Counted from the stretch's first letter, positions 1 through 9,557 are shown. The stretch: 64,000 bases of DNA from an uncultured delta proteobacterium (GCA_963727625.1 CAVSHR010000002.1:384001-448000), one strand, 5' to 3'. The notes: generated by a model from the letters alone, not told the origin. Made by a program: numbers and translations.

Positions 1-156
1 AAGTCGCGAGTCGAGGCTCTCTTTTCTGAAATATCGCATCTCGACGGGTTCTCTGTTGCAGATGCGCTCGACCGAATTCGAACTACGGGTTGCGAATAAA
101 TGTGATACCTCTCTCGCTCGTTATTCGCATGCCTCGCGCTTTGAAGTCTCCACTTG

Positions 157-876
157 CTAATGGGTGTCATCCTCCACCCAGGTTTTCTTTCCATAATAGC
201 CGCGCCGACTCGCGGTCATGACGAATTTTTGGAATTGCCGGTCATCTCGGTACTTAGCCATATCGTATCGCTCGTAGTGGGTCATCTCATCTACCTCTCG
301 CCGCGGCCGAGCCGGAATGGGGCGACTGGCATAGCCCAGTGGGATGAGGTGATAAATTCTAAGCGGCTCCGGAACTCCGAGTAGAACTTTCAGCAGGGTT
401 TCCATATAGACCGAGCTAGCGTCGCTAACATACTGGGTTGCCAAGCCGAGGGAGGTAGCCGCGAGATGAATTAACAATGTGGCGCTGGCCAGGCCTGTGT
501 AGAAATGAGAATCGGCTTTGTCCAACATGGTCCTGACGGGATAGGTCTCTTTCACCCTGGGATCGCCCAAGATCATGATATGAATCGGCGCATGCCGAAA
601 GCCGTCGCCGGTCATCTTAGCGTCCCCCCGCACCGCCATTTCCATCTCCTTTTTGTGCTCCTGCTGTTTGAGGAAGATGTCGGCGATTTGATGACGCGTG
701 TTCTCGTCGCGGATAACGATGAACTCCCAGGGTTGGCCGTTGCCTCCCGATGGAGCCCACCGGGCGCATTCGAGAATCTTTTGGACCATTTCGTCAGGAA
801 CATCCTTTGTCTTATCGTACCCGCGGATACTTCTCCGGTCGGCCGCCAGCTCCGTCAGAGCGTCAATGGTCATCAT
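157..876 (-). CDS. Nitroreductase family protein (FMN-dependent)
   Basis: RRSIRGY and ARWAPSGGNGQPWEF motifs; C-terminal LIPLGY; GGGAGG RBS before ATG at 876. Confidence 0.9.
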   Translation of the reverse strand: MMTIDALTELAADRRSIRGYDKTKDVPDEMVQKILECARWAPSGGNGQPWEFIVIRDENTRHQIADIFLKQQEHKKEMEMAVRGDAKMTGDGFRHAPIHIMILGDPRVKETYPVRTMLDKADSHFYTGLASATLLIHLAATSLGLATQYVSDASSVYMETLLKVLLGVPEPLRIYHLIPLGYASRPIPARPRREVDEMTHYERYDMAKYRDDRQFQKFVMTASRRGYYGKKTWVEDDTH

Positions 877-903
877 AGAAACCTCCCTTGGCAACTTATC
901 AAT

Positions 904-1647
904 TTAGCGTTTCTTGCGCTTTAGCGTGAGGCTGTAGCTGAAGATGTCGCTCCGGTAAAATCCCAACGTGAGCAGCAATAAATTCTTTCTGTGGAAATAA
1001 TATCTCTTGACAAAAAGTACCGGTGAGCCCGGCGAGATCCCCAGATAGGATGCCGCGTCGTCGTCGGCGAGTTTTGCTCCAACCAGATGCTTCACGTCAC
1101 TGATCGTAATAGGCAACACGGACTCGATGGCACTGGAAAGAGGCAGCGTGAGCAAGCTTCGCGGAGAGAGCTTAGTCGCGACCCCTGTCGGGACGTAGGA
1201 ATGTACATATGCCAGAGCTTGCCCGCGCGCCAATCTCGTCCGCGTTATCCGTGTTATCGTATCCCCTTCGGACAGGTCAAATTCTCTTCGTATGTTTTCC
1301 GTTGGCTTGAGATTCTCCGTCCGAAGAAGCTTGAAACTCGTGCCCTCTAGATTCAGCGTGACTAGAGTTTCCGCTTCGATCTCCAAGTTGATTGCTTGAT
1401 TGACCGGTCCGCTCCAGCTCACAAAAGTGCCCTTGGCGCGCTCGCGCCGGACGAGTCCCTCCTGAGCCAGTTGGCCCAGCGCTTGACGCACGGTGATGAC
1501 GCTCACGCCCAGGTGCCGGGCAAGATCCAATTCGCCAGGGAGCTGAAAGCCTCGACTCCATGTTCCGGAAAGAATGTTGTCGCGGATCTCCGTCATGACT
1601 TTGAAATAGAGCGGCACGGGAGAGCCCGATCTTTTGGCGAGGCGCAT
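904..1647 (-). CDS. GntR family (HutC/UTRA) transcriptional regulator
   Basis: PLYFKV..LPGELDLARHLGVSVITVRQAL..GLVRRERAKGTFV wHTH plus UTRA-like C-terminus. Confidence 0.92.
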   Translation of the reverse strand: MRLAKRSGSPVPLYFKVMTEIRDNILSGTWSRGFQLPGELDLARHLGVSVITVRQALGQLAQEGLVRRERAKGTFVSWSGPVNQAINLEIEAETLVTLNLEGTSFKLLRTENLKPTENIRREFDLSEGDTITRITRTRLARGQALAYVHSYVPTGVATKLSPRSLLTLPLSSAIESVLPITISDVKHLVGAKLADDDAASYLGISPGSPVLFVKRYYFHRKNLLLLTLGFYRSDIFSYSLTLKRKKR

Positions 1648-1761
1648 GTCGGTGACCTATAATTCGCCGAGAGCGGTCAATTGGCGGGATCCTCCGGCGA
1701 GTGTTTTGCGATCTTAAACCATCAAAGCTCAAACTCTCGATTCAGCCGCTGACCCCTAGAC

Positions 1762-2253
1762 CTACGCACTCTGAGCCTTTCTCTTCTTGAAGAACTGGAT
1801 ATGGCTCAAGGCGTCGGCGGCAACGATGCGCCCGATGGGGCCGATGCTGTACGAGGCATCGCAGACCTTTCTGTCCGAGTCGAGGATGAAATTCGTCGCG
1901 TGAATGATCTTTCTGCGCTCTTCCCAAAAGGCACCGATCTTGTCGGCGTCTCTCGGCACTTCGAGGCCATAGGCCGCGGGAAAGGTAAGCTGCAATTTTT
2001 CTACGGTCTCTTTCGCTTTGTCGAGGGGGTCGACGGATAGGGCGACGACGTCGACATTTTCTTTTTTGAACTCTTCGATATGCGATTGGTAGTCGGCTAA
2101 CTGCCGCATGCAGTACGGTCACCAACTGCCGCGATAAAAGATGAGAACCGCATATTCACCCGTGAGGTCCCGGGGAATTCGGACAGTTCGCCCGTCGACG
2201 GTTTGAACTTCATATTCAGGGAAAAGGTCGCCAGAGTTGAGTTGTCGTGCCAT
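1762..2253 (-). CDS. Peroxiredoxin-like (AhpC/TSA/redoxin) selenoprotein, UxxC; in-frame TGA at 2121-2119
   Basis: GGAGGG-ATG at 2253 gives MARQLNSGDLFPEYEVQTVDGRTVRIPRDLTGEYAVLIFYRGSW-TGA-PYCMRQLADYQ..., in frame with ORF 1762..2109; family motif is FYRGxWCPYC. Confidence 0.9.
2094..2118 (-). promoter_or_regulatory. Putative SECIS of the Prx-like gene
   Basis: CGGC-AGUUA-GCCG; loop starts 17 nt after UGA, same register and AG-start loop as the AhpD SECIS hairpins; stem only 4 bp. Confidence 0.55.
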
Positions 2254-2552
2254 ATGCCCTCCGTGAGAAGTTAGTGGTCAAACTTCGATATCACGCACCG
2301 TTGCAACATCATTACACAAACTTCGGGTTAAACTGCGTTGTTGTCATCGGTTCGGTTGGCCGCGTATGTTGACTGCTTATATGATTAGTAGTAGGAGGTC
2401 AATTGGTTTGCAGCGCCGGCGCGAGCGCGGTTTCGTCGAGCGCGCCGGCGCCGAATCGCCGCCGATCACGACCGAGGCAAGCTTGAACGAAAGAAGCTCG
2501 CCGCGATTACGGGCAATGACGGTTTCGCGTCGAAAACGGAAAAGGCAGGGCC

Positions 2553-2849
2553 ATGATTGATCTTTACTACTGGACCACGCCGAACGGTCACAAAATCACG
2601 ATCTTTCTCGAAGAGGCGGCGCTGCCCTATTCGATCGCCGACATGGCCAGCTATCCCTGGATCGTGCCCCATGAACGGCATAAGCAAAAGCTCGACGAGT
2701 TTTCGAACTTGAATCGCTGGTTTCTGGCCATCGGGCGGCGACCCGCCGTGCAGCGCGCCTATGAATTGGCAAAAACGATCAACACGAAGCCGACGGTCAA
2801 CGAGGATTCGAAGTCCATCCTTTTTGGGCAAGGGAGGCGCTCGGTATAA
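2553..2849 (+). pseudogene. Internally deleted glutathione S-transferase (YfcG/YghU-like)
   Basis: N-terminal MIDLYYWTTPNGHKITIFLEEAALPY joined directly to C-terminal SIADMASYPWI..RPAVQRAY; most of the GST body is missing. Confidence 0.8.
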
Positions 2850-2939
2850 GTGTGGTGGGTTTGGAATCCACCTGTCTTCGACAACCGCCCGCCCGAAGCC
2901 GCAAGCTAAGCTTAGTCTGAGCCGAAAGGAGGAAGTTCG

Positions 2940-3611
2940 ATGCCGTGGATAAAAATTATACCCGAGCATGAGGCCGAGGGTGAGCTGAAAGAAGTCTATC
3001 GAAAGATAAAAAAACAACGCCAGGATGAGAAGATCAATCAAGATCGTGACGCAGGCCCCGGCGGCCCGCCCGTGAGCCCGCCGATGTTGCACAGCCTCAA
3101 TCCCAAAGCCATGTGGCACACCGCCGAGCTTATGTGGGAGATCATGCGCGGTGAGTCGCGTCTGACCACGGTGCAGCGCGAGATGATCGCTACGGTGACC
3201 TCGGCGACGCTGCACTGCCGCTTTTGAACCGTCGCCCACGCAGAGTTTCTGCGTCAGGAAGGCGGCGACGACCTGACGGCGGAGCAGGTTAAAGACGATT
3301 GGCGGCAAATGGAGTTGAGCGGAGCCGAATACGCCATGTTGGAATTTGCCGAAAAGCTCACGCTCACGCCGAGCAATATGCGCGAAACGGACGTGCAAAA
3401 ATTACACGATGCCGGCTGGACGGATCGCGACATCCTCGATATCGTCCATGTTTGCGCCTATTTTAATTTTCGCGTGCGCGTGGTCGACGGTCTTGGCCTG
3501 GAAGTCGCCGATTGGCAAGTCGAGCGCGCCCGCGCCGGTGCCGCGCGGGCGGCAGAAATCGCGAAAGAGCGCGGTGTGACGATGCCGGCCGATCCCTGGA
3601 AAGTACGTTGA
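2940..3611 (+). CDS. AhpD/carboxymuconolactone decarboxylase-like selenoprotein 1 (CRFU); TGA at 3225-3227
   Basis: REMIATVTSATLHCRF-TGA-TVAHAEFLRQ continues in frame into ORF 3309..3611 (FAEKLT..AYFNFRVRVVDGLG). Confidence 0.92.
3228..3270 (+). promoter_or_regulatory. Putative SECIS (AhpD-1)
   Basis: Upper stem ACGCAG(3238-43)/CTGCGT(3249-54), loop AGTTT; lower stem CGTCGCC/GGCGACG. Confidence 0.75.
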
Positions 3612-3621
3612 GGATTGCATC

Positions 3622-4269
3622 ATGAGCTTCATCAAAGTCGTTCGCGAATCGGAGGCGACCGGCGAGCTTCAGGAAGTTTACGAGCGGACGCTCAGCCGAT
3701 TGAGCCCTTCGGTGCGCCAGCGCCGCGGCGACAAGCTGCCGCCCATCGTCAGGATTTTCAGTCTCTGCCCGGCGCTGCTCGAAGCGCGGGTCGGTTTCGA
3801 CAAGGGCATCTATCGCCCCGGCCATTCCGGTTTGGGCCGGCGCAAGGAGGAGCTCATCGCCACGCAGGTGGCGGCGCTGAGCGGCTGCCGGTTTTGAGGC
3901 ATCGGCCACGGAGAGTTTCTCCGTGTCGACGGCAAAATGGCGGTGGAGGAAGTCGCCAAAGTGATCTCCAACTGGCGCGAGGCGGATCTGGACGAACAGG
4001 AGAAGGCCATGCTCGCGTTCACGGAAAAATTCACCCTCACGCCGAGTCAGATCACAGACGCCGATATCGAGGCGCTGCGCCGGGCGGGATTCGGCGAGGA
4101 GCAAATACTTTCCATCGCCCTGGGCGCCGGTTATCGAAACTGGGTGGATCGCATCGCCGATCTGCTCGGCGTCGAAGAGGAAAAATTCGACTTCCCCGAG
4201 GAAATCTTGAAAGCTTTCGGGGTAACGCGCGAGCAGCTTCAAACTTCGCTCTACGGGGATGACCGATGA
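3622..4269 (+). CDS. AhpD-like selenoprotein 2 (CRFU); TGA at 3895-3897
   Basis: KEELIATQVAALSGCRF-TGA-GIGHGEFLRVDGK continues in frame into ORF 3937..4269. Confidence 0.92.
3898..3929 (+). promoter_or_regulatory. Putative SECIS (AhpD-2)
   Basis: ACGGAG(3908-13)/CTCCGT(3919-24), loop AGTTT; extension TCGGC/GTCGA. Confidence 0.75.
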
Positions 4270-4718
4270 GCCGCTTGCAAATGGCCGCGGGAAAGAAACT
4301 CGAAAACTTGCTCGGCGCGGCGCCGGGCGCGCTTGAAGCTGACAGCGCGATGCGCACCCTGCTGATCGATCAATTGACACCGCGACTCTACAGTTTGATC
4401 GGCGTTGTGGTCGCCGGTTGTCTGCGTTGCGAAAAGTTCGTCGAAGCTCTGCGCGGGCCGCTGGACAATACTTTTGTTGCTCAAGCCGCGCGTGATTGGC
4501 GCGCGCTTGAACTCACGACGGTGGAAAAGGCAGTGCTGGCCTACGCGGAAAAAGGCACCATGGACGAGGCTTCGGTGCGCAAAGGGGAGATCGACGAGCT
4601 GCGCGCAGCCGGTCTTAGCGATCGAGACGTGTTATTGACCGCCACCGCGATCGCCTATCACAACTATTCGATTCGCATGGCGGCGGCGTTCGACGTTCTA
4701 CCGAGTGCGGGTGAATGA
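4266..4718 (+). CDS. Degenerate AhpD/CMD-fold protein
   Basis: DWRALELTTVEKAVLAYAEK..LRAAGLSDRDV..AYHNYSIR matches the C-halves of the neighbours; ATGA overlap with the upstream gene. Confidence 0.85.
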   Translation: MSRLQMAAGKKLENLLGAAPGALEADSAMRTLLIDQLTPRLYSLIGVVVAGCLRCEKFVEALRGPLDNTFVAQAARDWRALELTTVEKAVLAYAEKGTMDEASVRKGEIDELRAAGLSDRDVLLTATAIAYHNYSIRMAAAFDVLPSAGE

Positions 4719-4748
4719 CCTAAAACCGAAAAGGAAGGATATTCCTAA

Positions 4749-5654
4749 ATGCGAGGCATAACTCCCAGACGAGAGCAGGGCATGGCCGATCCGGTGTTGG
4801 CCGAGATGGTTCATGCTACGGGGGCGACGGAGTCGCGCCACTACGCGGCGGTCAAGCCGACCATCCAAGCCTATCGCGCCAGTTGGGTGAAGCTCGCACC
4901 CTATCGAGATGGTCCCGTCAATTCGAATCGGGTGGCGGTCGACGATCCGGTGGCGATGACCGCTCAGGTCAAGGCAAAAGCATCGGCGTTGGGCGCCAAC
5001 CTGGTCGGGGTCTGTCGTTTGCAGCCGCATATGATCGATCTCGGTTCGGAATTGCCGCATGAATTCGTCATCGCGTGCTGCGTGGCGGAGGATTATGAAA
5101 AAGTCACTCAAGGGCCGGATGCGGTCGAAGAAGAAGCCATGCGGACCTATGCGAAATGCACCGAGATCGCCACGGATCTGGCCGCCTACGTGCGCGACCT
5201 GGGCTATCCCGCCATCGCCCATCACAACGGCGCCAGCGAAGTCCAGGCGATCCCGATTTTCTACCAGGTGGGCTTCGGCGAGCTGGGCCGGCACGGCAGT
5301 CTGATCAACGAGAAATACGGCGCGAGCTTCCGCCCGGGATTCGTGACCACGGACCTGCCGCTGGTGGAAGACCATCCGCGGGAATTCGGCGTGCAGGACT
5401 TCTGCATGACCTGCAACGTCTGCCAGCGCAACTGCCCGGGCGACGCGATACCGCAGGATCATGTCGTCACCCACGGCATCAAACGCTGGCTGATCGATCT
5501 GGAGAAATGCTACCCCTACTCGCGCTTGCGCGAAGAGTACTGTCATCTCTGCGTCGACGCCTGTCCGTACATCGTGAAGTCCTATCCCGAAACCTACAAA
5601 GCCTTCATGAAAGAGCGCAAGCAAGTGGGCTACAAAACGCCGAAGACCTATTGA
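4749..5654 (+). CDS. Reductive dehalogenase/epoxyqueuosine reductase-like cobalamin and 2x[4Fe-4S] protein, no signal peptide
   Basis: LGANLVG, LGYPA, GFGELGRHGSLINEKYG, VTTDLPL, CMTCNVCQRNCP and C-x10-CHLCVDACP. Confidence 0.85.
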   Translation: MRGITPRREQGMADPVLAEMVHATGATESRHYAAVKPTIQAYRASWVKLAPYRDGPVNSNRVAVDDPVAMTAQVKAKASALGANLVGVCRLQPHMIDLGSELPHEFVIACCVAEDYEKVTQGPDAVEEEAMRTYAKCTEIATDLAAYVRDLGYPAIAHHNGASEVQAIPIFYQVGFGELGRHGSLINEKYGASFRPGFVTTDLPLVEDHPREFGVQDFCMTCNVCQRNCPGDAIPQDHVVTHGIKRWLIDLEKCYPYSRLREEYCHLCVDACPYIVKSYPETYKAFMKERKQVGYKTPKTY

Positions 5655-5660
5655 ACTTTT

Positions 5661-5870
5661 ATGGAAAAACTCTACGTCAACGAAATCGGCCCCGATGGCC
5701 ACGTGAGCACCGCAGGCTTGTTCTATTCGCTGGCCGAGGCGCAAAGGATCGTCGAAATGCTGCGCGCCAATCCCGAGCGAGCGGGCTATCGGTATGAAAT
5801 CGTCGAGGCGGTGCGGCATACCTTAACCGAGAAGCAGGCGAATCCGACCGCGACCGCGCAGAAGGAGTGA
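5661..5870 (+). CDS. Small hypothetical protein within the operon
   Basis: 69 aa; fills the gap between flanking genes and overlaps the next start (GTGA); host-like codons. Confidence 0.6.
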   Translation: MEKLYVNEIGPDGHVSTAGLFYSLAEAQRIVEMLRANPERAGYRYEIVEAVRHTLTEKQANPTATAQKE

Positions 5871-6424
5871 CCATGCCCTATATCAAAACCGTGCCGCCGG
5901 CCGAGGCCACCGGCAAGCTCAAGGAAGTTTACGAGTCCGGCTCCGGCCCGTCCGCGGCGCGCGGCAAGGTGTCGATGATCCGCCAGGTGCAAAGCCTCAA
6001 CACTGACAACCTCGCCGCCTGGCGCGCGCTCGACGTGTCGATCATGCGCGGCGAGTCGCGCATCACCCGGCGCCAGCGCGAGATGATCGCCACGGCGGTG
6101 TCGTCGACCAATCATTGCAGCTATTGAATGACCGCCCACGGAGAGGCTCTCCGTACCGAATCCAATGACGACCCGCTGGTCGAAGGCATCAAGCAGGATT
6201 ACACCCGACTGGATCTGCCGCCCGCCGAGCGCGCGATGCTCGACTACGCTGTCAAACTAACGGTGGCGCCGTCGACGGCGAATGAAGCGGATATCGAGAA
6301 CCTACGCGCCCACGGTTTCGATGATCGCGATATCTTGGACATCGTTTACGTCATTTGCCTTTATAACTTCAACGACCGCATGGCGGACGCCACCGGTATT
6401 ACCGGGCATGATTTTTTTAAGTGA
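5867..6424 (+). CDS. AhpD-like selenoprotein 3 (CSYU); TGA at 6125-6127
   Basis: REMIATAVSSTNHCSY-TGA-MTAHGEALR; ORFs 5867..6127 and 6128..6424 abut in frame (start may be ATG 5873). Confidence 0.92.
6128..6154 (+). promoter_or_regulatory. Putative SECIS (AhpD-3)
   Basis: ACGGAG(6138-43)/CTCCGT(6149-54), loop AGGCT. Confidence 0.72.
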
Positions 6425-6469
6425 GTCATTTATTCACCGAGCGTCGCACTCGGTAAGATTGGAGAAAGC

Positions 6470-7015
6470 ATGAGCAAGTCGCCAGGGAAGATCGATCGCG
6501 CAGCGTTTCGCGAGGTGCATAAACAGCAGCAAGAGCGGGCCAAGCAAGGCCCGGAAGGATACACAACGACAACACGAGCTGTGATCCGGCTCATTGAAGG
6601 TCAATTGAAAGAAGCCCGCATCGGCGAATATACCATCCAGTGCGACGAGGCGAAGTCGCGCAAGGGCGGCGGCAAGGCGCCTTCGCCGCTGCAGTACTTC
6701 GTCGCGGCGACGGGATTTTGAATGTTCAGTCAACTGACGCGGTACGCGTCGCAACTGGACATCGAGATCGAAGACGCCGAGATGGACATTCGCATGACCT
6801 ACGACACCCGCGGCAAGCTGCTGCTCGCGGACGTGCATCCGGGCTGCCGCGAGCTGACCTACGTATTCAAGATCAAGAGCTCGGCGCCGTCGGAGAAGGT
6901 TCAGGAGATGCTGCGGCTGATCGAAAAAGGCTGCCACACGATCAATTCTTTGAAAATCCCGGTGCCGGTGGCCGGAAAGTTGATTCACAACGGTCAGGAA
7001 ATCGCCGCGCCGTAA
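6470..7015 (+). CDS. OsmC/Ohr-like selenoprotein; TGA at 6719-6721
   Basis: DEAKSRKGGGKAPSPLQYFVAATGF-TGA-MFSQL...EKGCHTINSL; TGA replaces the first OsmC Cys, second Cys retained. Confidence 0.92.
6722..6762 (+). promoter_or_regulatory. Putative SECIS (OsmC)
   Basis: Lower stem ATGTTCAGT/ACTGGACAT; upper stem GACGCG/CGCGTC with GTA loop. Confidence 0.75.
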
Positions 7016-7079
7016 AACTTAGCCAGACGCAATTGAAATTCTCTGTTGCCTCGGACTTTAGGGAATCGGCACATGATGC

Positions 7080-7158
7080 CCCTCGCAAAGGCGCAAAGAC
7101 GCCAAGTTTGGAGAAGTACGAAAGAGTTTTCTTTGCGCGCTTAGCGCCTTGGCGAGGG
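7080..7158. repeat. REP-like imperfect palindrome
   Basis: CCCTCGCAAAGGCGCAAAGACGCCAAG ... CTTTGCGCGCTTAGCGCCTTGGCGAGGG. Confidence 0.6.
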
Positions 7159-7241
7159 AATGAGTCTTGAACTCAATCTTTTAGGCCTCTCGGACGGAAG
7201 ATCCAAGGAGCGAGTTAAAACTGGCTCAGAAGGAAGTATTC

Positions 7242-8027
7242 ATGATTGAGCTCTACCACAACGACATGTCGGTCTGCGCCCAGAAGGTGCGCTTCGCCCT
7301 CGCGGAGAAAAAACTTTCATGGGACGGCCATCACATGAATCTCCGCGCCGGTGATCAGCAAAAGCCGGAATATTTAAAGCTCAATCCCAACGCGGTGGTG
7401 CCGACGCTGGTGGATGACGGCACGGTGATCATCGAGTCCACGGTGATCAACGAGTATCTCGACGACGCCTATCCCGAACCGAGACTCAAGCCGGCGGACG
7501 CCGCCGGACGCGCGCGCATGCGGCTCTGGACCAAGCAACTCGACGAAGGCGTGCACGCGGCTACCAGCGTGGTCAGCTCGGCGATCGCGTTTCGCTATCA
7601 GAAGCTCGCCATCGGCATGGAAGCCCTCGAAGAATTTCACAAGAAAATGCCCGACCCGGTGAAGCGGGAGAAGAGCTGGGAGAATGTCACCAAAGGCGTC
7701 GAATCGCGTTTCTTTCCCGAAGCGATCATGCGCTTTGAAAAGCTGCTCGCCGACATGGAAACAACTCTGGGAGATTCGCCATGGCTCGCCGGCAACGAAT
7801 TTTCGCTCGCGGATATCGGTTTCGCGCCCTACATCACCCGGCTCGATCACTTGCAATTGCAGTTTCTCTGGGACAAGCGGCCGCATATCCCCGACTGGTA
7901 CGATCGCCTGCGCGAGCGGCGGGGTTACACCGAAGCGCTGGAAAAATGGTTCAATCCGAAATATCTGCCGCTAATGAAAGAAAAGGGGCTGGAAGCTCGC
8001 GACCGAGTCAAAGAGATCGTCGGTTAG
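7242..8027 (+). CDS. Glutathione S-transferase family protein
   Basis: LYHNDMSVCAQKVRFAL, LNPNAVVPTL, IESTVINEYLD, WLAGNEFSLADI. Confidence 0.93.
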   Translation: MIELYHNDMSVCAQKVRFALAEKKLSWDGHHMNLRAGDQQKPEYLKLNPNAVVPTLVDDGTVIIESTVINEYLDDAYPEPRLKPADAAGRARMRLWTKQLDEGVHAATSVVSSAIAFRYQKLAIGMEALEEFHKKMPDPVKREKSWENVTKGVESRFFPEAIMRFEKLLADMETTLGDSPWLAGNEFSLADIGFAPYITRLDHLQLQFLWDKRPHIPDWYDRLRERRGYTEALEKWFNPKYLPLMKEKGLEARDRVKEIVG

Positions 8028-8143
8028 GGGATCAGTCATTAAATTACGACGAACGAGTCACGGAAGGATAAACTCTCCTGGCCGCTCAAGTTGGCCAGAC
8101 TTCAGCTCTCATTAACGGAACGGCGCTGGAAGGCGCAACCTCC

Positions 8144-8497
8144 TCATGGCTGAATGGTCTCGACGAACCCCTCTGTCGGCACTTCATGCCCTAAGCCTGA
8201 TTCTCGGGCTCCGTGGTAGATAAGATCCGCTAGCGCAGTAAATTGCGCGCCCACACCGGTACTGTTGAGGAAGAGGGTGCGTTGCTCGCGGCCTGCTCTA
8301 CCGTTTATCTTTCCCGCGACCAGCTCGCCTAGATCAGGAAATTTGTTCCAGTCGAGATCGCGCGGTGGATGATCGCGCATGACAAATCCATACTGCTTTT
8401 CCATCGAAGAAAAGTCGGTTGAAACGTATTTATGCTCCTTCTCACGAGTATGGAAGACCACCACATCGGCCTGTGCGAAACAATCGCGTAGAATCTT
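8144..8497 (-). pseudogene. C-terminal fragment of an ornithine cyclodeaminase/mu-crystallin family protein
   Basis: ADVVV..DLGELVAGKINGR..RTLFLNSTGVGAQFTA..ARESGLG; 5' part cut off at the Y1-element end. Confidence 0.75.
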
Positions 8498-8506
8498 GGG
8501 AGAATC

Positions 8507-9557
8507 TTGGTGTCAGACTTATTATTTAATTATTTATTTTGCCGGCTCGCAACTCTTTTAATAAGCCGCCAATATTTTTACTCAGATCGGCTTCCTGAGC
8601 CAACCTCTCTCGCAGTCGCTTTAGTCCTAAACTCAAGCTCACCTGATCACGGCCATATCGTGCTGCTACCTCGTTGAGCTTGATAGTCCCCAATTCCTGC
8701 CCGAGGTACGCTACCACCGCGCGCACAAATGACCCTCGATGTTCTTTGGTTCGTAAATGCAGAAGTTCCGCTGCGTATTCATACCGTCGAGATACCGCAC
8801 TCTCGATGGTGCTCAGATCCACTCGTATCTTCGGCGGCGAATCAAGGTCAAGATGACGATTGATTTTATCGACAAACTGATCGTCTCCTAAAAACCTTTG
8901 CTCTTTGATATCGTAAAAATCATCGCGATGTCCCGAGCCAATGCCGTCCGACACAAACTCCTTATACTTGCGGCGCGCACGCGCCATGTCGGGCGCGAAC
9001 TGCTCTAAAACCCAGTCCGTTTGGACCACGGCCGTTCCCTTCGTGGCGCCACTGTTGAGATAGTCGCGGTGGCTGCTCCAGGGATAATCCGCCGGATCGG
9101 CTACAATCTCGGACCGAACCGGATTGAGATGAAGATAGCGTACCAGTTCGAGAAGATAAGAATCTCGATCACAGAGGATGCCTTTGTAGCGTCCCTGGAA
9201 TAGGTGGCCAACAAGCTTGTACTTGCGATTGAAGTACAAGGTGTAGCTTTGCTGCAAGCCCTGCATGATCTTGGCTAGCGGGTACTTTGCGACTTGCATC
9301 AAAAGATGCACGTGGTTGGTCATCAAGACGTAAGCATAAAGTTGAAATTGGTAGCGTCTGCCGTACTGGTTGAGCAACTTCAGATAGCGCCGCCGATCGG
9401 TATCGGCGCGAAAAATGATCTGGCGCTGGTTGCCGCGACAAATCACATGGTAAAGCGCACCAGGGTAGTGCACTCTCGGCTTTCTGGCCACGGATTTTGG
9501 AATATCACGACAGCAACGCTGAATGCAAGAAATAAATATATAAATGTCTGACACCAA
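8507..9557 (-). mobile_element. Y1/RAYT-type element bounded by 12-bp inverted repeats
   Basis: TTGGTGTCAGAC (8507-8518) and GTCTGACACCAA (9546-9557) flank the transposase. Confidence 0.75.
8526..9491 (-). CDS. REP-associated-type tyrosine (Y1 HUH) transposase with C-terminal DnaA_C-like HTH
   Basis: MARKPRVHYPGALYHVICRGN, AYVLMTNHVHL (HUH), GHLFQGRYK, YLHLNPVR, YPWSSH. Confidence 0.92.
   Translation of the reverse strand: MARKPRVHYPGALYHVICRGNQRQIIFRADTDRRRYLKLLNQYGRRYQFQLYAYVLMTNHVHLLMQVAKYPLAKIMQGLQQSYTLYFNRKYKLVGHLFQGRYKGILCDRDSYLLELVRYLHLNPVRSEIVADPADYPWSSHRDYLNSGATKGTAVVQTDWVLEQFAPDMARARRKYKEFVSDGIGSGHRDDFYDIKEQRFLGDDQFVDKINRHLDLDSPPKIRVDLSTIESAVSRRYEYAAELLHLRTKEHRGSFVRAVVAYLGQELGTIKLNEVAARYGRDQVSLSLGLKRLRERLAQEADLSKNIGGLLKELRAGKINN

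What the first reader, a model, noticed from the sequence alone, without database searches (positions are those of the whole stretch)
1762..7015. Hidden selenoprotein island: five UGA-recoded redox genes in about 5 kb
Seen in sequence: five genes that the ORF track splits or truncates each have one in-frame TGA exactly at the family's catalytic Cys. They are Prx-like FYRGSW-U-PYC (2121), AhpD-like CRF-U-TVAH (3225), CRF-U-GIGH (3895) and CSY-U-MTAH (6125), and OsmC-like ATGF-U-MFS (6719). Both halves of each gene are intact, with no other lesions. The three AhpD genes also end at TGA, so decoding is context-specific rather than a genome-wide code change. Established: Prx-like, AhpD-like and OsmC-like bacterial selenoproteins exist as individual families. 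Inference: four Sec proteins from one apparent operon plus a divergent Sec-Prx form a dedicated selenol redox system that standard annotation would miss.
Basis: partly seen in the sequence, partly recalled or inferred. Interest (0 to 1): 0.92.

Follow-up and report, generated by a model that had tools for sequence, protein, structure and literature searches.

The report
Five-selenoprotein redox gene cluster in Binatia
Five neighbouring antioxidant-type genes of an uncultured Binatia bacterium each read the stop codon UGA as selenocysteine at their reactive site; the protein families are already known to do this, but so dense and conserved a cluster, joined to a dehalogenase-like enzyme, was not found in the papers searched.

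Summary
Five genes (Prx-like, three AhpD-like, OsmC-like) each carry one in-frame TGA. It lies at the redox Cys column of their family. Selenocysteine decoding is strongly supported:
- tRNA-Sec, selA, selB and selD are present in the genome.
- Orthologs down to 55-68% identity, in about 40 related genomes and 39 public loci, keep the TGA.
- Full-length homologs carry Cys there.
- In all five genes the lowest synonymous variation of the whole gene lies just after the TGA.
- The AhpD hairpin shows compensatory base changes.

TGA is also the commonest ordinary stop, so decoding depends on context.

All three families are long-known selenoprotein families, and NCBIfam has models that four of the five pass. 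The organism is selenoprotein-rich, with at least 26 Sec genes.

What looks undescribed is the conserved operon: AhpD1-AhpD2-AhpD(Cys)-RdhA-like cobalamin/Fe-S protein-69-aa subunit-AhpD3-OsmC. It recurs in one Binatia genus. A single "dedicated selenol system" remains inference. The RdhA-like/small pair also occurs without the selenoproteins, and the Prx gene moves about.

Verdict: real, a new arrangement of known kinds, moderately interesting.

The parts
1762..2253 (-). Prx-like thiol:disulfide oxidoreductase selenoprotein gene (163 aa, UxxC, stop TAG), transcribed away from the operon
   Evidence: In relatives, 31 of 31 rows at 62% identity or more that cover residue 45 hold a TGA (G005 left out). 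The codon at the U column is TGA in 15 of 15 distinct orthologs.
2119..2121 (-). Sec codon U45 of the Prx-like gene
   Evidence: The column holds C in P0132 and W in five JGI full-length calls.
2094..2106 (-). Most likely SECIS apical hairpin of the Prx-like gene (CGGC-AGUUA-GCCG, +16..+28). It overlaps an alternative hairpin at 2100..2114.
   Evidence: Invariant and 100% paired in 15 orthologs, with no covariation. The alternative hairpin is 97% paired. Paralog C4:691987 has CGGCA-GGU-UGCCG at the same place. The gene's synonymous-variation minimum lies here.
2940..3611 (+). AhpD-like selenoprotein 1 (223 aa, CxxU, stop TGA)
   Evidence: TIGR01926 scores 127.9 against a cut-off of 81.8. The TGA is kept in 12 of 12 ortholog rows at 58% identity or more (G005 left out) and in all 39 public loci.
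3225..3227 (+). Sec codon U96 of AhpD1
   Evidence: Aligns with the second Cys of CxxC in PDB 6k40, 3c1l and 2pfx. The column is C in 10 and W in 4 of 14 full-length database homologs.
3238..3254 (+). SECIS hairpin of AhpD1 (ACGCAGA-GUU-UCUGCGU)
   Evidence: 97.5% of 448 cells paired and two pairs with compensatory change. Synonymous-variation minimum of the gene.
3622..4269 (+). AhpD-like selenoprotein 2 (215 aa, CxxU, stop TGA overlapping the next start as ATGA)
   Evidence: TIGR01926 scores 94.5. The TGA is kept in 11 of 12 distinct orthologs. The exception is one 55%-identity copy, seen in L028/L087.
3895..3897 (+). Sec codon U92 of AhpD2
3907..3925 (+). SECIS hairpin of AhpD2 (CACGGAGA-GUU-UCUCCGUG)
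4266..4718 (+). Short Cys-type AhpD-like paralog (150 aa, CLRC). It lacks the relay Glu and His.
   Evidence: TIGR01926 scores 47.7, below the cut-off. It is 33% identical to AhpD1. The alignment is ambiguous at the motif. Syntenic in related loci.
4749..5654 (+). Compact RdhA-like cobalamin/2x[4Fe-4S] protein (301 aa)
   Evidence: PDB 4RAS/6ZXU NpRdhA at 3e-51 and PceA at 2e-23. TIGR02486 scores 119, below the cut-off of 160. The Cys motifs are invariant in 10 orthologs.
5661..5870 (+). Conserved 69-aa ORF of no known family, predicted subunit of the RdhA-like protein. Its stop overlaps the AhpD3 start (GTGA).
   Evidence: No Pfam or NCBIfam match. 27 of 69 columns are invariant in 10 orthologs. 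Only Binatota clusters in the ESM Atlas. Complex model 0.85 against a best control of 0.02.
5867..6424 (+). AhpD-like selenoprotein 3 (185 aa, CxxU, GTG start, stop TGA)
   Evidence: TIGR01926 scores 141. TGA in 11 of 11 distinct orthologs.
6125..6127 (+). Sec codon U87 of AhpD3
6138..6154 (+). SECIS hairpin of AhpD3 (ACGGAGA-GGC-UCUCCGU)
6470..7015 (+). OsmC-like selenoprotein (181 aa, U84 plus C154, stop TAA)
   Evidence: NF041052 scores 145 against a cut-off of 95. 10 of 10 ortholog rows at 68% identity or more hold 1 TGA. TGA in 14 of 14 distinct orthologs.
6719..6721 (+). Sec codon U84 of the OsmC-like gene
   Evidence: Aligns with Cys in PDB 2opl and 3cje and with Cys in the genome's own paralog C2:45663-46199.
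6723..6761 (+). SECIS stem-loop of the OsmC-like gene (inner UGACGCG-GUA-CGCGUCG at 6735-6751, with an outer helix)
   Evidence: 96% paired in 14 orthologs, with wobble changes only. Paralogs have GCCCG-GUA-CGGGC and UCCCG-GUA-CGGGG at the same place. Synonymous-variation minimum of the gene.
904..1647 (-). GntR/UTRA regulator, a recurring neighbour and candidate regulator
   Evidence: It lies beside the cluster in L059, L060, L061, L066, L068, L069, L087 and L088.
157..894 (-). Nitroreductase-family gene, a recurring neighbour
   Evidence: Syntenic in L060 and L066.
7242..8027 (+). Glutathione S-transferase gene downstream of the operon
   Evidence: Syntenic in L061 and L063. In G003 a GST hit lies directly next to the RdhA-like/small pair.

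Best explanation
Shown: these are five genuine selenoprotein genes of a selenoprotein-rich Binatia bacterium. In each, SelB and tRNA-Sec would read one UGA as selenocysteine. A short hairpin that starts 13-17 nt after the UGA, with a G-first apical loop at about +21 to +24, directs this. The UGAs that end six genes of the region have no such element and terminate.

The selenol replaces the reactive thiol in each protein:
- the second Cys of the Glu...Cys-x-x-Cys-x-x-x-His relay of the three AhpD-like proteins (CxxU);
- the first of the two Cys of the OsmC-like hydroperoxidase (the peroxidatic one, as recalled for OsmC/Ohr);
- the N-terminal Cys of a thioredoxin-fold UxxC motif in the Prx-like protein.

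Seven genes from 2940 to 7015 are packed with gaps of -4 to 45 nt. They recur in the same order in one Binatia genus, so they are most likely one operon.

Inferred:
- The OsmC-Sec enzyme reduces organic hydroperoxides or similar electrophiles and is recycled by selenol/thiol exchange with the CxxU AhpD-like proteins, as AhpD recycles AhpC.
- The compact RdhA-like cobalamin/Fe-S enzyme with its 69-aa subunit is a separate older module. The AhpD3-OsmC pair was added to it.
- Whether the RdhA-like module exchanges electrons with the selenoproteins is open.
For: Sec machinery in the genome:
- tRNA-Sec scores 76.7 bits against a cut-off of 47, with anticodon TCA.
- selA scores 607 bits, selB 397 bits and selD 377 bits. 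selD itself has one in-frame TGA.
- selA is present in 5 of 5 relatives tested. One is the single-contig G025, which carries Prx, AhpD1 and OsmC Sec orthologs on that same contig.

Conservation of the TGA:
- The codon at the U column is TGA in 42 of 42 AhpD1, 11 of 12 AhpD2, 11 of 11 AhpD3, 14 of 14 OsmC and 15 of 15 Prx distinct ortholog sequences.
- Both flanks align over the full length down to 55-68% identity.

Cys/Sec pairing:
- PDB homologs have Cys at the column.
- 10 of 14 full-length AhpD homologs have C, and the other 4 have W.
- The OsmC paralog in the same genome has Cys.

RNA element:
- In all five genes the gene-wide minimum of third-position variation is an 8-codon window starting between U-1 and U+5. 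Values are 0.09-0.28 against gene means of 0.55-0.74.
- In the AhpD hairpin, 97.5% of 448 cells pair. C-G changes to G-C in 22 sequences and A-U to G-C in 6. The covariation score is 0.213 against 0.087, reached by 0 of 500 shuffles.
- OsmC paralogs keep the GUA loop on different stems.
- 26 Sec sites of the genome have stronger downstream hairpins than 1006 other read-through TGAs: median -9.9 against -6.7 kcal/mol, p = 6e-5.

Genetic code: TGA ends 1434 of 3609 long open frames.

Operon: the gene order is conserved in L059, L061, L063, L068 and L088, and in part in 8 more loci. Related genomes G017, G019, G012 and G004 show it too.

AhpD relay: the Glu(-12)/Cys/Sec/His(+4) spacing matches the M. 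tuberculosis relay Glu118/Cys130/Cys133/His137 quoted in PMC3141380.

RdhA-like protein. The complex model with the small ORF scores ipSAE 0.85 against a best control of 0.02. In the tool's calibration this mark was reached by 58 of 80 solved complexes and 2 of 110 mismatched pairs. The runs agree in at least 71% of contacts, and the partner's pLDDT is at least 74.
Against: - There is no protein-level or selenium evidence of any kind.
- Single-sequence hairpin energies are not remarkable against shuffles: z = -1.0 to -2.1, and +0.17 for Prx.
- The Prx hairpins show no covariation. The OsmC stem shows wobble changes only.
- The Cys-type OsmC paralog can also fold a hairpin at a similar place, so a hairpin alone does not discriminate.
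- No Rfam family matched.
- The covariation events are few and follow clades.
- The assembly is a MAG with an estimated 6.3% contamination.

Against one common pathway:
- The Prx gene's place varies.
- The orthologs are dispersed in G025.
- AhpD1 stands without the other cluster genes, as judged by tblastn with the window's proteins, in 20 loci labelled Dehalococcoidia, SAR202, Chloroflexota or Chloroflexia.
- Family f3 has the RdhA-like ortholog (11 of 11 genomes) but no AhpD1-like hit (0 of 11).
- G003 has RdhA-like, small ORF and GST with no AhpD or OsmC between them.
Confidence: 0.88

Rival explanations
1. The selenoprotein genes are real, but the 'island' is only an accretion of separately acting redox genes. 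They would share regulation, or a recombination-prone spot, but no pathway.
For: - The Prx position varies among loci.
- The orthologs are dispersed in the single-contig genome G025.
- The RdhA-like/small pair occurs without AhpD or OsmC in G003 and G038.
- Some loci lack AhpD2 and AhpD(Cys): L064, L071, L072 and L094.
- The genome has at least 21 further Sec genes elsewhere.
- An IS200-like transposase and gene remnants flank the region.
Against: - Spacing is tight and two pairs of genes have overlapping stop and start.
- The same order recurs in at least 5 full and 8 partial loci at 75-94% protein identity.
- AhpD3 lies next to the RdhA-like/small pair in 9 clear cases and 1 partial case of 11 genomes of the genus that have the ortholog (G005 left out).
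Confidence: 0.35
2. The TGAs are read as another amino acid (Trp, Gly or Cys), or the organism has a changed genetic code.
For: Some database gene calls show W at the column: 4 of 14 AhpD homologs and 5 of 6 full-length Prx homologs.
Against: - TGA is the commonest terminator of long frames, 1434 of 3609.
- It ends six genes of this very region.
- The aligned residue in true full-length homologs is Cys, not Trp.
- A complete Sec machinery is present.
- The W calls are most simply TGA translated under another table by the caller. I could not see their DNA.
Confidence: 0.03
3. The genes are pseudogenes, or the TGAs are assembly errors.
For: A GST remnant and an ornithine-cyclodeaminase fragment nearby show that decay occurs in this region. 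One AhpD2 copy in another MAG has lost the TGA region.
Against: - The same TGA recurs in dozens of independent assemblies, with both halves conserved.
- It always falls at the redox Cys column.
- No second lesion is present.
- There is selection on synonymous sites just downstream.
Confidence: 0.01
4. Each gene is expressed as two separate polypeptides, split at the TGA.
For: Gene callers produce the downstream halves as ORFs.
Against: - The codons directly after the TGA, before any start codon, are conserved as protein. An example is T-V-A-H-A-E-F-L-R with the relay His.
- In AhpD1 the first ATG lies 28 codons downstream.
- The split would separate the two residues of the CxxU motif.
Confidence: 0.02

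Closest known systems
AhpD-like selenoproteins (COG2128 / TIGR01926 'peroxidase-related enzyme', CxxU): 'AhpD-like 1' of the Sargasso Sea and GOS selenoproteomes
   Same: - Same family model, passed at 94.5-141 bits against a cut-off of 81.8.
- Same CxxU motif.
- The GOS paper lists 299 such sequences and the 2026 review lists TIGR01926 with CxxU.
- The Glu/Cys/Cys/His relay of M. tuberculosis AhpD is kept.
   Different: - Three paralogs (37-46% identical to each other) plus a degenerate Cys paralog sit in one operon.
- AhpD1 has an N-terminal insertion and a C-terminal tail of about 35 residues.
- No AhpC gene was seen in the region read (window 1-9500).
OsmC-related (seleno)protein NF041052; OsmC/Ohr organic hydroperoxide reductases
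   Same: - Passes NF041052 at 145 bits against a cut-off of 95.
- Sec lies at the first Cys, and the second Cys (C154) is kept.
- OsmC-like is listed as a selenoprotein family in GOS with 5 sequences.
   Different: - The motif is UxxS here, against UxxT in the GOS table.
- It is an N-terminally extended form, and one of three Sec paralogs plus one Cys paralog in this genome.
Prx-like thiol:disulfide oxidoreductase selenoproteins ('Prx-like 1', PF00578, UxxC)
   Same: - PF00578 match of 82 bits.
- W-U-P-x-C motif.
- The family is listed in the GOS paper (225 sequences) and in the 2026 review.
   Different: - Not a classical peroxiredoxin: Sec replaces the motif Thr, and the peroxidatic column holds C48.
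- It passes no NCBIfam equivalog cut-off.
NpRdhA, the catabolic reductive dehalogenase of Nitratireductor pacificus (PDB 4RAS, 6ZXU)
   Same: - The 301-aa protein aligns with the catalytic half, chain residues 346-571, at 3e-51.
- It keeps both [4Fe-4S] motifs.
- It keeps the proton-donor Tyr426 and has a basic residue (Arg) at Lys488.
   Different: - Less than half the length: no N-terminal duplicate domain.
- Ala at Ser422, and Arg552 falls in an indel.
- Below the TIGR02486 cut-off (119 against 160).
- Paired with a 69-aa protein of no known family.
- Substrate and cobalamin binding are unknown.
Multi-selenoprotein operons: SAO (six Sec genes), Tso (three), frhA-frhD-hdrA-glpC (four); Prx-like/AhpD-like neighbour pair in GOS
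   Same: Several Sec genes lie in one transcription unit, which is taken as a sign of a shared pathway (review PMC13188914, passages seen). One GOS read had Prx-like 1 next to AhpD-like 2.
   Different: - Different families: none of the Sao or Tso NCBIfam models matched.
- Here four Sec genes lie in the operon, three of them paralogs, plus one divergent Sec gene.
- The lineage (Binatia) appears in no paper with 'selenocysteine' or 'selenoprotein' in the library searched.

Membership tests
Bacterial selenoprotein gene (Sec-UGA) | In-frame UGA aligned with Cys (or Sec) in homologs, with both flanks conserved | tested here: met
   For Prx the Cys support is thin: one full-length homolog with C (P0132), plus CxxC families such as ResA and StoA.
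Bacterial selenoprotein gene (Sec-UGA) | SECIS stem-loop just downstream of the UGA with a G in the apical loop. The 16-37 nt spacing rule is recalled from bSECISearch, not from a call. | tested here: met
   AhpD1-3: covariation and a synonymous-site minimum. OsmC: conserved stem, paralog covariation and a minimum. Prx: the minimum is present, but the choice between two small hairpins is unresolved and there is no covariation.
Bacterial selenoprotein gene (Sec-UGA) | selA, selB, selC and selD in the same genome | tested here: met
   selA is also in 5 of 5 relatives.
Bacterial selenoprotein gene (Sec-UGA) | Selenium actually present in the full-length protein | not testable with these tools
   No RNA or protein data. 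No RNA run holds the stretch.
AhpD-like / TIGR01926 peroxidase-related enzyme | Score above the curated cut-off | tested here: met
   127.9, 94.5 and 141 against 81.8. The Cys paralog at 4266..4718 scores 47.7, so the feature is not met for it.
AhpD-like / TIGR01926 peroxidase-related enzyme | Glu ... Cys-x-x-Cys-x-x-x-His proton relay | tested here: met
   E81/C93/U96/H100, E77/C89/U92/H96 and E72/C84/U87/H91. The relay is as quoted in PMC3141380. The residue equivalent to His132 is Phe or Tyr.
AhpD-like / TIGR01926 peroxidase-related enzyme | Alkylhydroperoxidase or AhpC-reducing activity | not testable with these tools
   No call bears on this; it needs an enzyme assay.
OsmC-related (seleno)protein NF041052 | Score above the cut-off, and the two conserved Cys positions | tested here: met
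   145 against 95. U84 and C154 align with the Cys pair of 3cje.
Peroxiredoxin proper (PxxxTxxC) | Thr and peroxidatic Cys of the T-x-x-C motif | tested here: not met
   U45 stands at the Thr column and C48 at the Cys column. I therefore file the gene as a Prx-like UxxC thiol:disulfide oxidoreductase, not as a peroxiredoxin.
Reductive dehalogenase RdhA (TIGR02486) | Score above the curated cut-off | tested here: not met
   119.4 against 160.35. I therefore call it 'RdhA-like'.
Reductive dehalogenase RdhA (TIGR02486) | Two [4Fe-4S] motifs, and the Tyr proton donor with a basic partner | tested here: met
   C219/222/225/229 and C254/265/268/272 are invariant. Tyr stands at Y426 and Arg at K488. 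The residue roles are from PMC7565698.
Reductive dehalogenase RdhA (TIGR02486) | Cobalamin binding; dehalogenation of a substrate | not testable with these tools
   No call bears on this; it needs purified protein.
SAO / Tso selenoprotein operons | Presence of the Sao or Tso marker families | tested here: not met
   No Sao or Tso model appears among the NCBIfam matches of the ten proteins.

The most novel reading that the evidence does not exclude
The operon is a selenol-driven reductive pathway. CxxU AhpD-like proteins would pass electrons to, or take them from, a minimal cobalamin/Fe-S enzyme of the reductive-dehalogenase family. They would do so through a new 69-aa subunit that docks between its two Fe-S motifs. 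This would be a selenol/thiol-linked electron supply, not found in the papers I searched, for an RdhA-type enzyme acting on halogenated or other electrophilic compounds. OsmC-Sec, the GSTs and the nitroreductase would handle side products.
Probability: 0.12. Interest if true: 0.8.

Novelty: new variant of a known kind. Interest (0 to 1): 0.5.

Why it matters
The cluster is a clean, comparative-genomics-grade example of context-dependent UGA decoding. Within about 5 kb, five UGAs are read as Sec and six terminate.

It shows that gene callers systematically halve these genes in public databases. Most of the listed database relatives of AhpD1 and Prx are fragments.

It places Binatia among selenoprotein-rich lineages, with at least 26 Sec genes here. 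The review quotes records of 57 and 63. I found no paper in the searched library that links this lineage with selenocysteine or selenoproteins.

It offers a testable hypothesis for AhpD-like selenoproteins, whose functions the 2026 review calls unknown. They sit with an OsmC-Sec peroxidase and with an RdhA-like enzyme plus a new small subunit.

If the selenoproteins do feed or serve that enzyme, this would bear on how oxygen-tolerant, non-respiratory dehalogenase-family enzymes obtain electrons.

Tried and rejected
- Rfam scan of 1600..7200 at E up to 10: no SECIS family, only four chance-level hits.
- Single-sequence folding against shuffles: not significant. I dropped it as evidence and used comparative tests instead.
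- Negative control with the Cys-type OsmC paralog: it also folds a hairpin downstream of its Cys codon, so the control is not clean.
- Promoter and terminator scan: 5 promoter-like sites against 2.0 expected, and 8 terminator-like sites against 6.2 expected. Nothing usable for operon borders.
- RNA evidence: no RNA holder is listed for 1700..7100. Only small-share DNA holders exist. Read laying was not used. No claim on habitat or expression is made.
- Haft and Tolstoy 2025 (PMC12013261) is not held, so I could not check whether this neighbourhood is among theirs.
- Deng et al. 2026 and Peng et al. 2016 were not read.
- Supplementary tables of the GOS, ISME J, mSystems and Cell Reports papers were not seen and may list these genes or this cluster.
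- deep-Sep paper (PMC12013277): 0 occurrences of AhpD, OsmC, operon, Binat or dehalogenase.
- Neighbours of the RdhA-like gene in family f3 (L117): five ORFs gave no Pfam match and look like wrong-frame ORFs. I did not pursue this.
- Pseudogene, code-change and split-gene readings are rejected for the reasons given under the rival explanations.

Genome-wide scan:
- 1032 read-through TGAs were found. 211 had spanning paralog hits, and 57 had Cys or Sec aligned.
- I picked 24 by recognisable motif and fetched 20.
- The other 4 were not checked: a second ArsM-like gene, two unknowns, and a thioredoxin with TGA at a Trp column.
- The count of 26 is therefore a floor from a biased method, not a selenoproteome.

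Rows dropped:
- L028 (unpublished G005) was left out.
- The L087 AhpD2 copy (TTC at the column, 55% identity) was removed from alignment A1 by my 'starts with TGA' filter.
- Orthologs below 55% identity were not used.

Papers, and what I saw of each:
- PMC13188914: passages.
- PMC2398784: passages.
- PMC7565698: passages.
- PMC3141380: passages.
- PMC1088965, PMC1794560, PMC1976440 and PMC9312934: search listing and start of abstract only.

Recalled, from no call: the peroxidatic role of the first Cys in OsmC/Ohr, the 16-37 nt SECIS spacing, the PceA Arg305 analogy, and the MetE zinc ligands.

Full report
**Observation**

- 2121..2119 on the minus strand (Prx-like, U45);
- 3225 (AhpD1, U96);
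- 3895 (AhpD2, U92);
- 6125 (AhpD3, U87);
- 6719 (OsmC-like, U84).

Each gene has exactly one internal TGA. Pfam domains run across it: AhpC-TSA 4e-23; CMD 5e-10, 2e-10 and 1e-11; OsmC 2e-14.

The three AhpD genes end at TGA (3609, 4267, 6422). So do three further genes of the operon. OsmC ends at TAA and Prx at TAG.

**Sec machinery and genetic code**

The window lies on contig C2 of a 6.62-Mb, 15-contig assembly. Its estimated completeness is 98.45% and its contamination 6.3%. The assembly holds:
- a tRNA-Sec at 76.7 bits against a cut-off of 47, which ARAGORN reads as anticodon TCA;
- a selA-selB-selD cluster on contig C5 at 607, 397 and 377 bits, all over their cut-offs. selD itself carries one in-frame TGA.

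The island and the machinery lie on different contigs of a MAG, so I checked relatives. selA is present in 5 of 5 relatives that carry the genes. One of them is the single-contig genome G025, whose Prx, AhpD1 and OsmC orthologs with TGA lie on that same contig.

TGA is the commonest terminator of long open frames in the genome: 1434 of 3609. The code is therefore standard and the decoding is local.

**Conservation**

I searched 41 genomes of the same genus and order. G005, which is unpublished, is left out of these counts.
- AhpD1: 12 of 12 rows at 58% identity or more hold one TGA.
- Prx: 31 of 31 rows at 62% identity or more that cover residue 45 hold a TGA.
- OsmC: 10 of 10 rows at 68% identity or more hold one TGA. 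A paralog group at 39-49% identity holds none.

A scan of one genome per species found 39 loci with an AhpD1 relative. They are labelled Candidatus Binatia or 'Deltaproteobacteria bacterium', with one each labelled Syntrophobacteraceae, Syntrophobacter and Candidatus Udaeobacter, and, at 55-77% identity, Dehalococcoidia, SAR202, Chloroflexota and Chloroflexia. In all 39 the U column is a stop.

Read at the codon level, the column is TGA in the following numbers of distinct sequences:
- 42 of 42 AhpD1;
- 11 of 12 AhpD2;
- 11 of 11 AhpD3;
- 14 of 14 OsmC;
- 15 of 15 Prx.

The one exception is a 55%-identity AhpD2 copy that seems to have lost the segment.

**Cys/Sec pairing**

AhpD1's U aligns with the second Cys of the CxxC motif of solved AhpD-like proteins (6k40, 3c1l, 2pfx). 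OsmC's U aligns with a Cys of 2opl and 3cje and with Cys in the genome's own paralog.

Among 14 full-length database homologs of AhpD1, the column is C in 10 and W in 4. For Prx, five JGI full-length calls have W and one ENA protein has C. The W calls are most simply TGA translated under another table. I could not see their DNA.

Against peroxiredoxins, U45 stands at the motif Thr and C48 at the peroxidatic Cys. The protein is a thioredoxin-fold W-U-x-x-C oxidoreductase. This is the 'Prx-like 1, UxxC' family of the GOS study.

**SECIS elements**

Each UGA is followed by a small hairpin:
- AhpD1: ACGCAGA-GUU-UCUGCGU;
- AhpD2: CACGGAGA-GUU-UCUCCGUG;
- AhpD3: ACGGAGA-GGC-UCUCCGU. In all three AhpD genes the hairpin starts 13 nt after the U of UGA;
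- OsmC: GACGCG-GUA-CGCGUC, inside a longer helix.

Single-sequence energies are unremarkable against shuffles (z from -2.1 to +0.17), so I used comparative tests.

First, covariation. On 64 AhpD sequences the 7-bp stem is paired in 97.5% of 448 cells. Two pairs change on both sides: C-G to G-C in 22 sequences and A-U to G-C in 6. The covariation score is 0.213 against 0.087, reached by 0 of 500 shuffles, and slid registers score 0.08 or less. The events are few and follow clades.

Second, synonymous constraint. In all five genes the lowest third-position variation of the whole gene is an 8-codon window that starts between U-1 and U+5. Minimum against gene mean:
- Prx: 0.26 against 0.72;
- AhpD1: 0.28 against 0.74;
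- AhpD2: 0.16 against 0.55;
- AhpD3: 0.09 against 0.58;
- OsmC: 0.12 against 0.63.

This is independent of any structure model. It is what an RNA element overlapping the coding sequence predicts.

Third, genome-wide comparison. 26 Sec sites have stronger downstream hairpins than 1006 other read-through TGAs: median -9.9 against -6.7 kcal/mol, p = 6e-5. Most of them share a G-first triloop at about +21 to +24. OsmC paralogs keep the GUA loop on different stems.

Weak points:
- The OsmC stem shows wobble changes only.
- Prx has two mutually exclusive small hairpins without covariation. I prefer CGGC-AGUUA-GCCG, because a paralog has CGGCA-GGU-UGCCG at the same place.
- The Cys-type OsmC paralog can also fold a hairpin.
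- Rfam has no match.

**Annotation**

Most of the listed database relatives of AhpD1 are about 126-aa pieces covering only the part after the TGA. Most of the 120 listed relatives of Prx (496 in all) are 105-115-aa pieces. However, NCBIfam already has models that the three AhpD genes pass (TIGR01926) and that OsmC passes (NF041052, named '(seleno)protein').

**Context in the genome**

I ran a rough scan of my own: read-through ORFs, coding score, then paralog alignment with Cys or Sec at the column. I picked 24 further candidates and fetched 20 of them. All 20 have NCBIfam matches that span the TGA:
- four GrdB-family proteins (450-481 bits against a cut-off of 65);
- five TxxU peroxiredoxins;
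- four more UxxC Prx-like proteins;
- two more OsmC-related proteins (173 and 178 bits);
- one YciW-related protein;
- two rhodaneses;
- one ArsM;
- one MetE-like protein.

With SelD and the five genes here, that makes at least 26 Sec genes. This is a floor from a biased method. Even so, five within 5254 bases is far from chance (about 2e-7).

**The operon**

Genes from 2940 to 7015 lie on one strand with these gaps:
- 10 nt between AhpD1 and AhpD2;
- -4 nt (ATGA overlap) between AhpD2 and the Cys-type AhpD paralog;
- 30 nt to the RdhA-like gene;
- 6 nt to the small ORF;
- -4 nt (GTGA overlap) to AhpD3;
- 45 nt to OsmC.

The order AhpD1-AhpD2-AhpD(Cys)-RdhA-like-small-AhpD3-OsmC(-GST) recurs in L059, L061, L063, L068 and L088, and in part in eight more loci. 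L064, L071, L072 and L094 lack AhpD2 and AhpD(Cys). The Prx gene, the GntR/UTRA regulator and a nitroreductase are frequent but movable neighbours.

In G025 the Prx, AhpD1 and OsmC orthologs lie at about 1.0, 2.5 and 3.6 Mb. The island was therefore assembled within one genus.

The fourth AhpD-like gene (4266..4718) has CLRC. It lacks the relay Glu and His and scores below the cut-off.

**The non-selenoprotein core**

The 301-aa Fe-S protein matches the catalytic half of the catabolic reductive dehalogenase NpRdhA (4RAS/6ZXU, 3e-51) and PceA (2e-23).
- Both [4Fe-4S] motifs are invariant in 10 orthologs.
- The proton-donor Tyr426 is kept, and Lys488 is Arg. The roles are from PMC7565698.
- It is below the TIGR02486 cut-off (119 against 160), so I call it RdhA-like.

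The 69-aa ORF after it has no family. It is conserved, with 27 of 69 columns invariant.

A complex model supports, but does not show, binding of the small ORF to the RdhA-like protein:
- The ipSAE score is 0.85, against a best control of 0.02.
- In the tool's calibration this mark was reached by 58 of 80 solved complexes and by 2 of 110 mismatched pairs.
- The runs agree in at least 71% of contacts, and the partner's pLDDT is at least 74.
- My own shallow alignments were used.
- The interface lies at residues 235-252, between the two Fe-S motifs.

The pair is older than the island. It occurs with a GST but without AhpD or OsmC in G003, and without them in G038 of family f3. Family f3 has the ortholog in 11 of 11 genomes but no AhpD1-like hit in 0 of 11. 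Within the genus, AhpD3 lies next to the pair in 9 clear cases and 1 partial case of 11 genomes.

**Mechanism**

Shown:
- recoding signals;
- family membership;
- conserved redox residues: the Glu/Cys/Sec/His relay with the spacing of M. tuberculosis AhpD, and U84 plus C154 in OsmC;
- operon-like packing.

Inferred:
- OsmC-Sec reduces hydroperoxides.
- CxxU AhpD-like proteins recycle it by selenylsulfide exchange, as AhpD recycles AhpC.
- The Prx-like UxxC protein is a further disulfide exchanger.

A link between these proteins and the RdhA-like enzyme is possible. It is my most novel reading, at about 12%, and it is not required by the data.

**Comparison and novelty**

The GOS paper lists AhpD-like (CxxU), Prx-like (UxxC) and OsmC-like selenoproteins. 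It records one read with Prx-like and AhpD-like genes as neighbours.

The 2026 review has a section on selenoprotein operons. It names SAO with six Sec genes, Tso with three, and frh/hdr with four. These are different families, and none of their models match here.

Literature searches gave the following:
- 'Binatia' with 'selenocysteine': no paper.
- 'Binatota' with 'selenoprotein': no paper.
- 'reductive dehalogenase' with 'AhpD' and 'selenocysteine': only a general review.

Haft and Tolstoy 2025 is not held, and supplements were not seen. 'Not in print' therefore means only 'not found in these searches'.

I rate the finding as a new variant of a known kind, a multi-selenoprotein operon of new composition in a lineage not yet linked with selenium, with interest of about 0.5.

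Noticed in passing
G000:C3:159959-161059 (minus strand; locus L115), outside the window: A MetE-like protein (cobalamin-independent methionine synthase family; NF005085 at 239 bits, below the cut-off) has an in-frame TGA at residue 241, in FGFHI-U-RGN. This is the H-x-C position, which I recall as a zinc ligand in MetE. Of 15 ortholog rows at 62-79% identity that cover the site, 14 keep one TGA (G005 left out). Paralogs at 45% identity or less have no stop. The 2026 review has no occurrence of 'methionine synthase' or 'homocysteine'. This may be an unlisted selenoprotein family.
   Followed up: partly
whole genome G000: The genome holds at least 26 Sec genes with a family match across the TGA. 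Among them are four GrdB-family proteins, five TxxU peroxiredoxins, five UxxC Prx-like proteins, three OsmC-related proteins, rhodaneses, ArsM and Sec-SelD. Four further candidates were not checked. One is a thioredoxin with TGA at a Trp column (C4:1602473-1602982).
   Followed up: partly
window 2553..2849 (+): This is a remnant of a YfcG-like glutathione-dependent disulfide oxidoreductase/GST. Only model positions 1-26 and 205-264 are left, so it has an internal deletion. The two parts lie about 390 nt apart in L087, where the gene looks whole.
   Followed up: partly
loci L073-L085, L089-L093 and L095: MAGs labelled Dehalococcoidia, SAR202, Chloroflexota or Chloroflexia carry AhpD1 orthologs at 55-77% protein identity. 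They have the same TGA, and most have a near-identical hairpin, but none of the other cluster genes as judged by tblastn with the window's proteins. This suggests transfer between phyla. No tree was built.
   Followed up: no
G000:C2:45663-46819, outside the window: A second small module: the Cys-type OsmC paralog (46% identical, no stop) lies directly upstream of a Prx-like UxxC selenoprotein gene.
   Followed up: no
window 8144..8464 (-) and 8526..9557 (-): A C-terminal fragment of an ornithine cyclodeaminase-family gene lies next to an IS200-like (Y1) transposase gene, just right of the island.
   Followed up: no
database proteins P0005, P0104, P0108, P0111 and P0125-P0129: These full-length public gene calls carry W at the Sec column. 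Presumably TGA was translated as Trp by the caller. Such records would mislead alignment-based Cys/Sec tests.
   Followed up: no
G022:C804:195-2056: Two tandem copies of the RdhA-like gene (92% and 80% identical to the window's) lie ahead of two AhpD-like Sec genes and OsmC-Sec in one relative.
   Followed up: no
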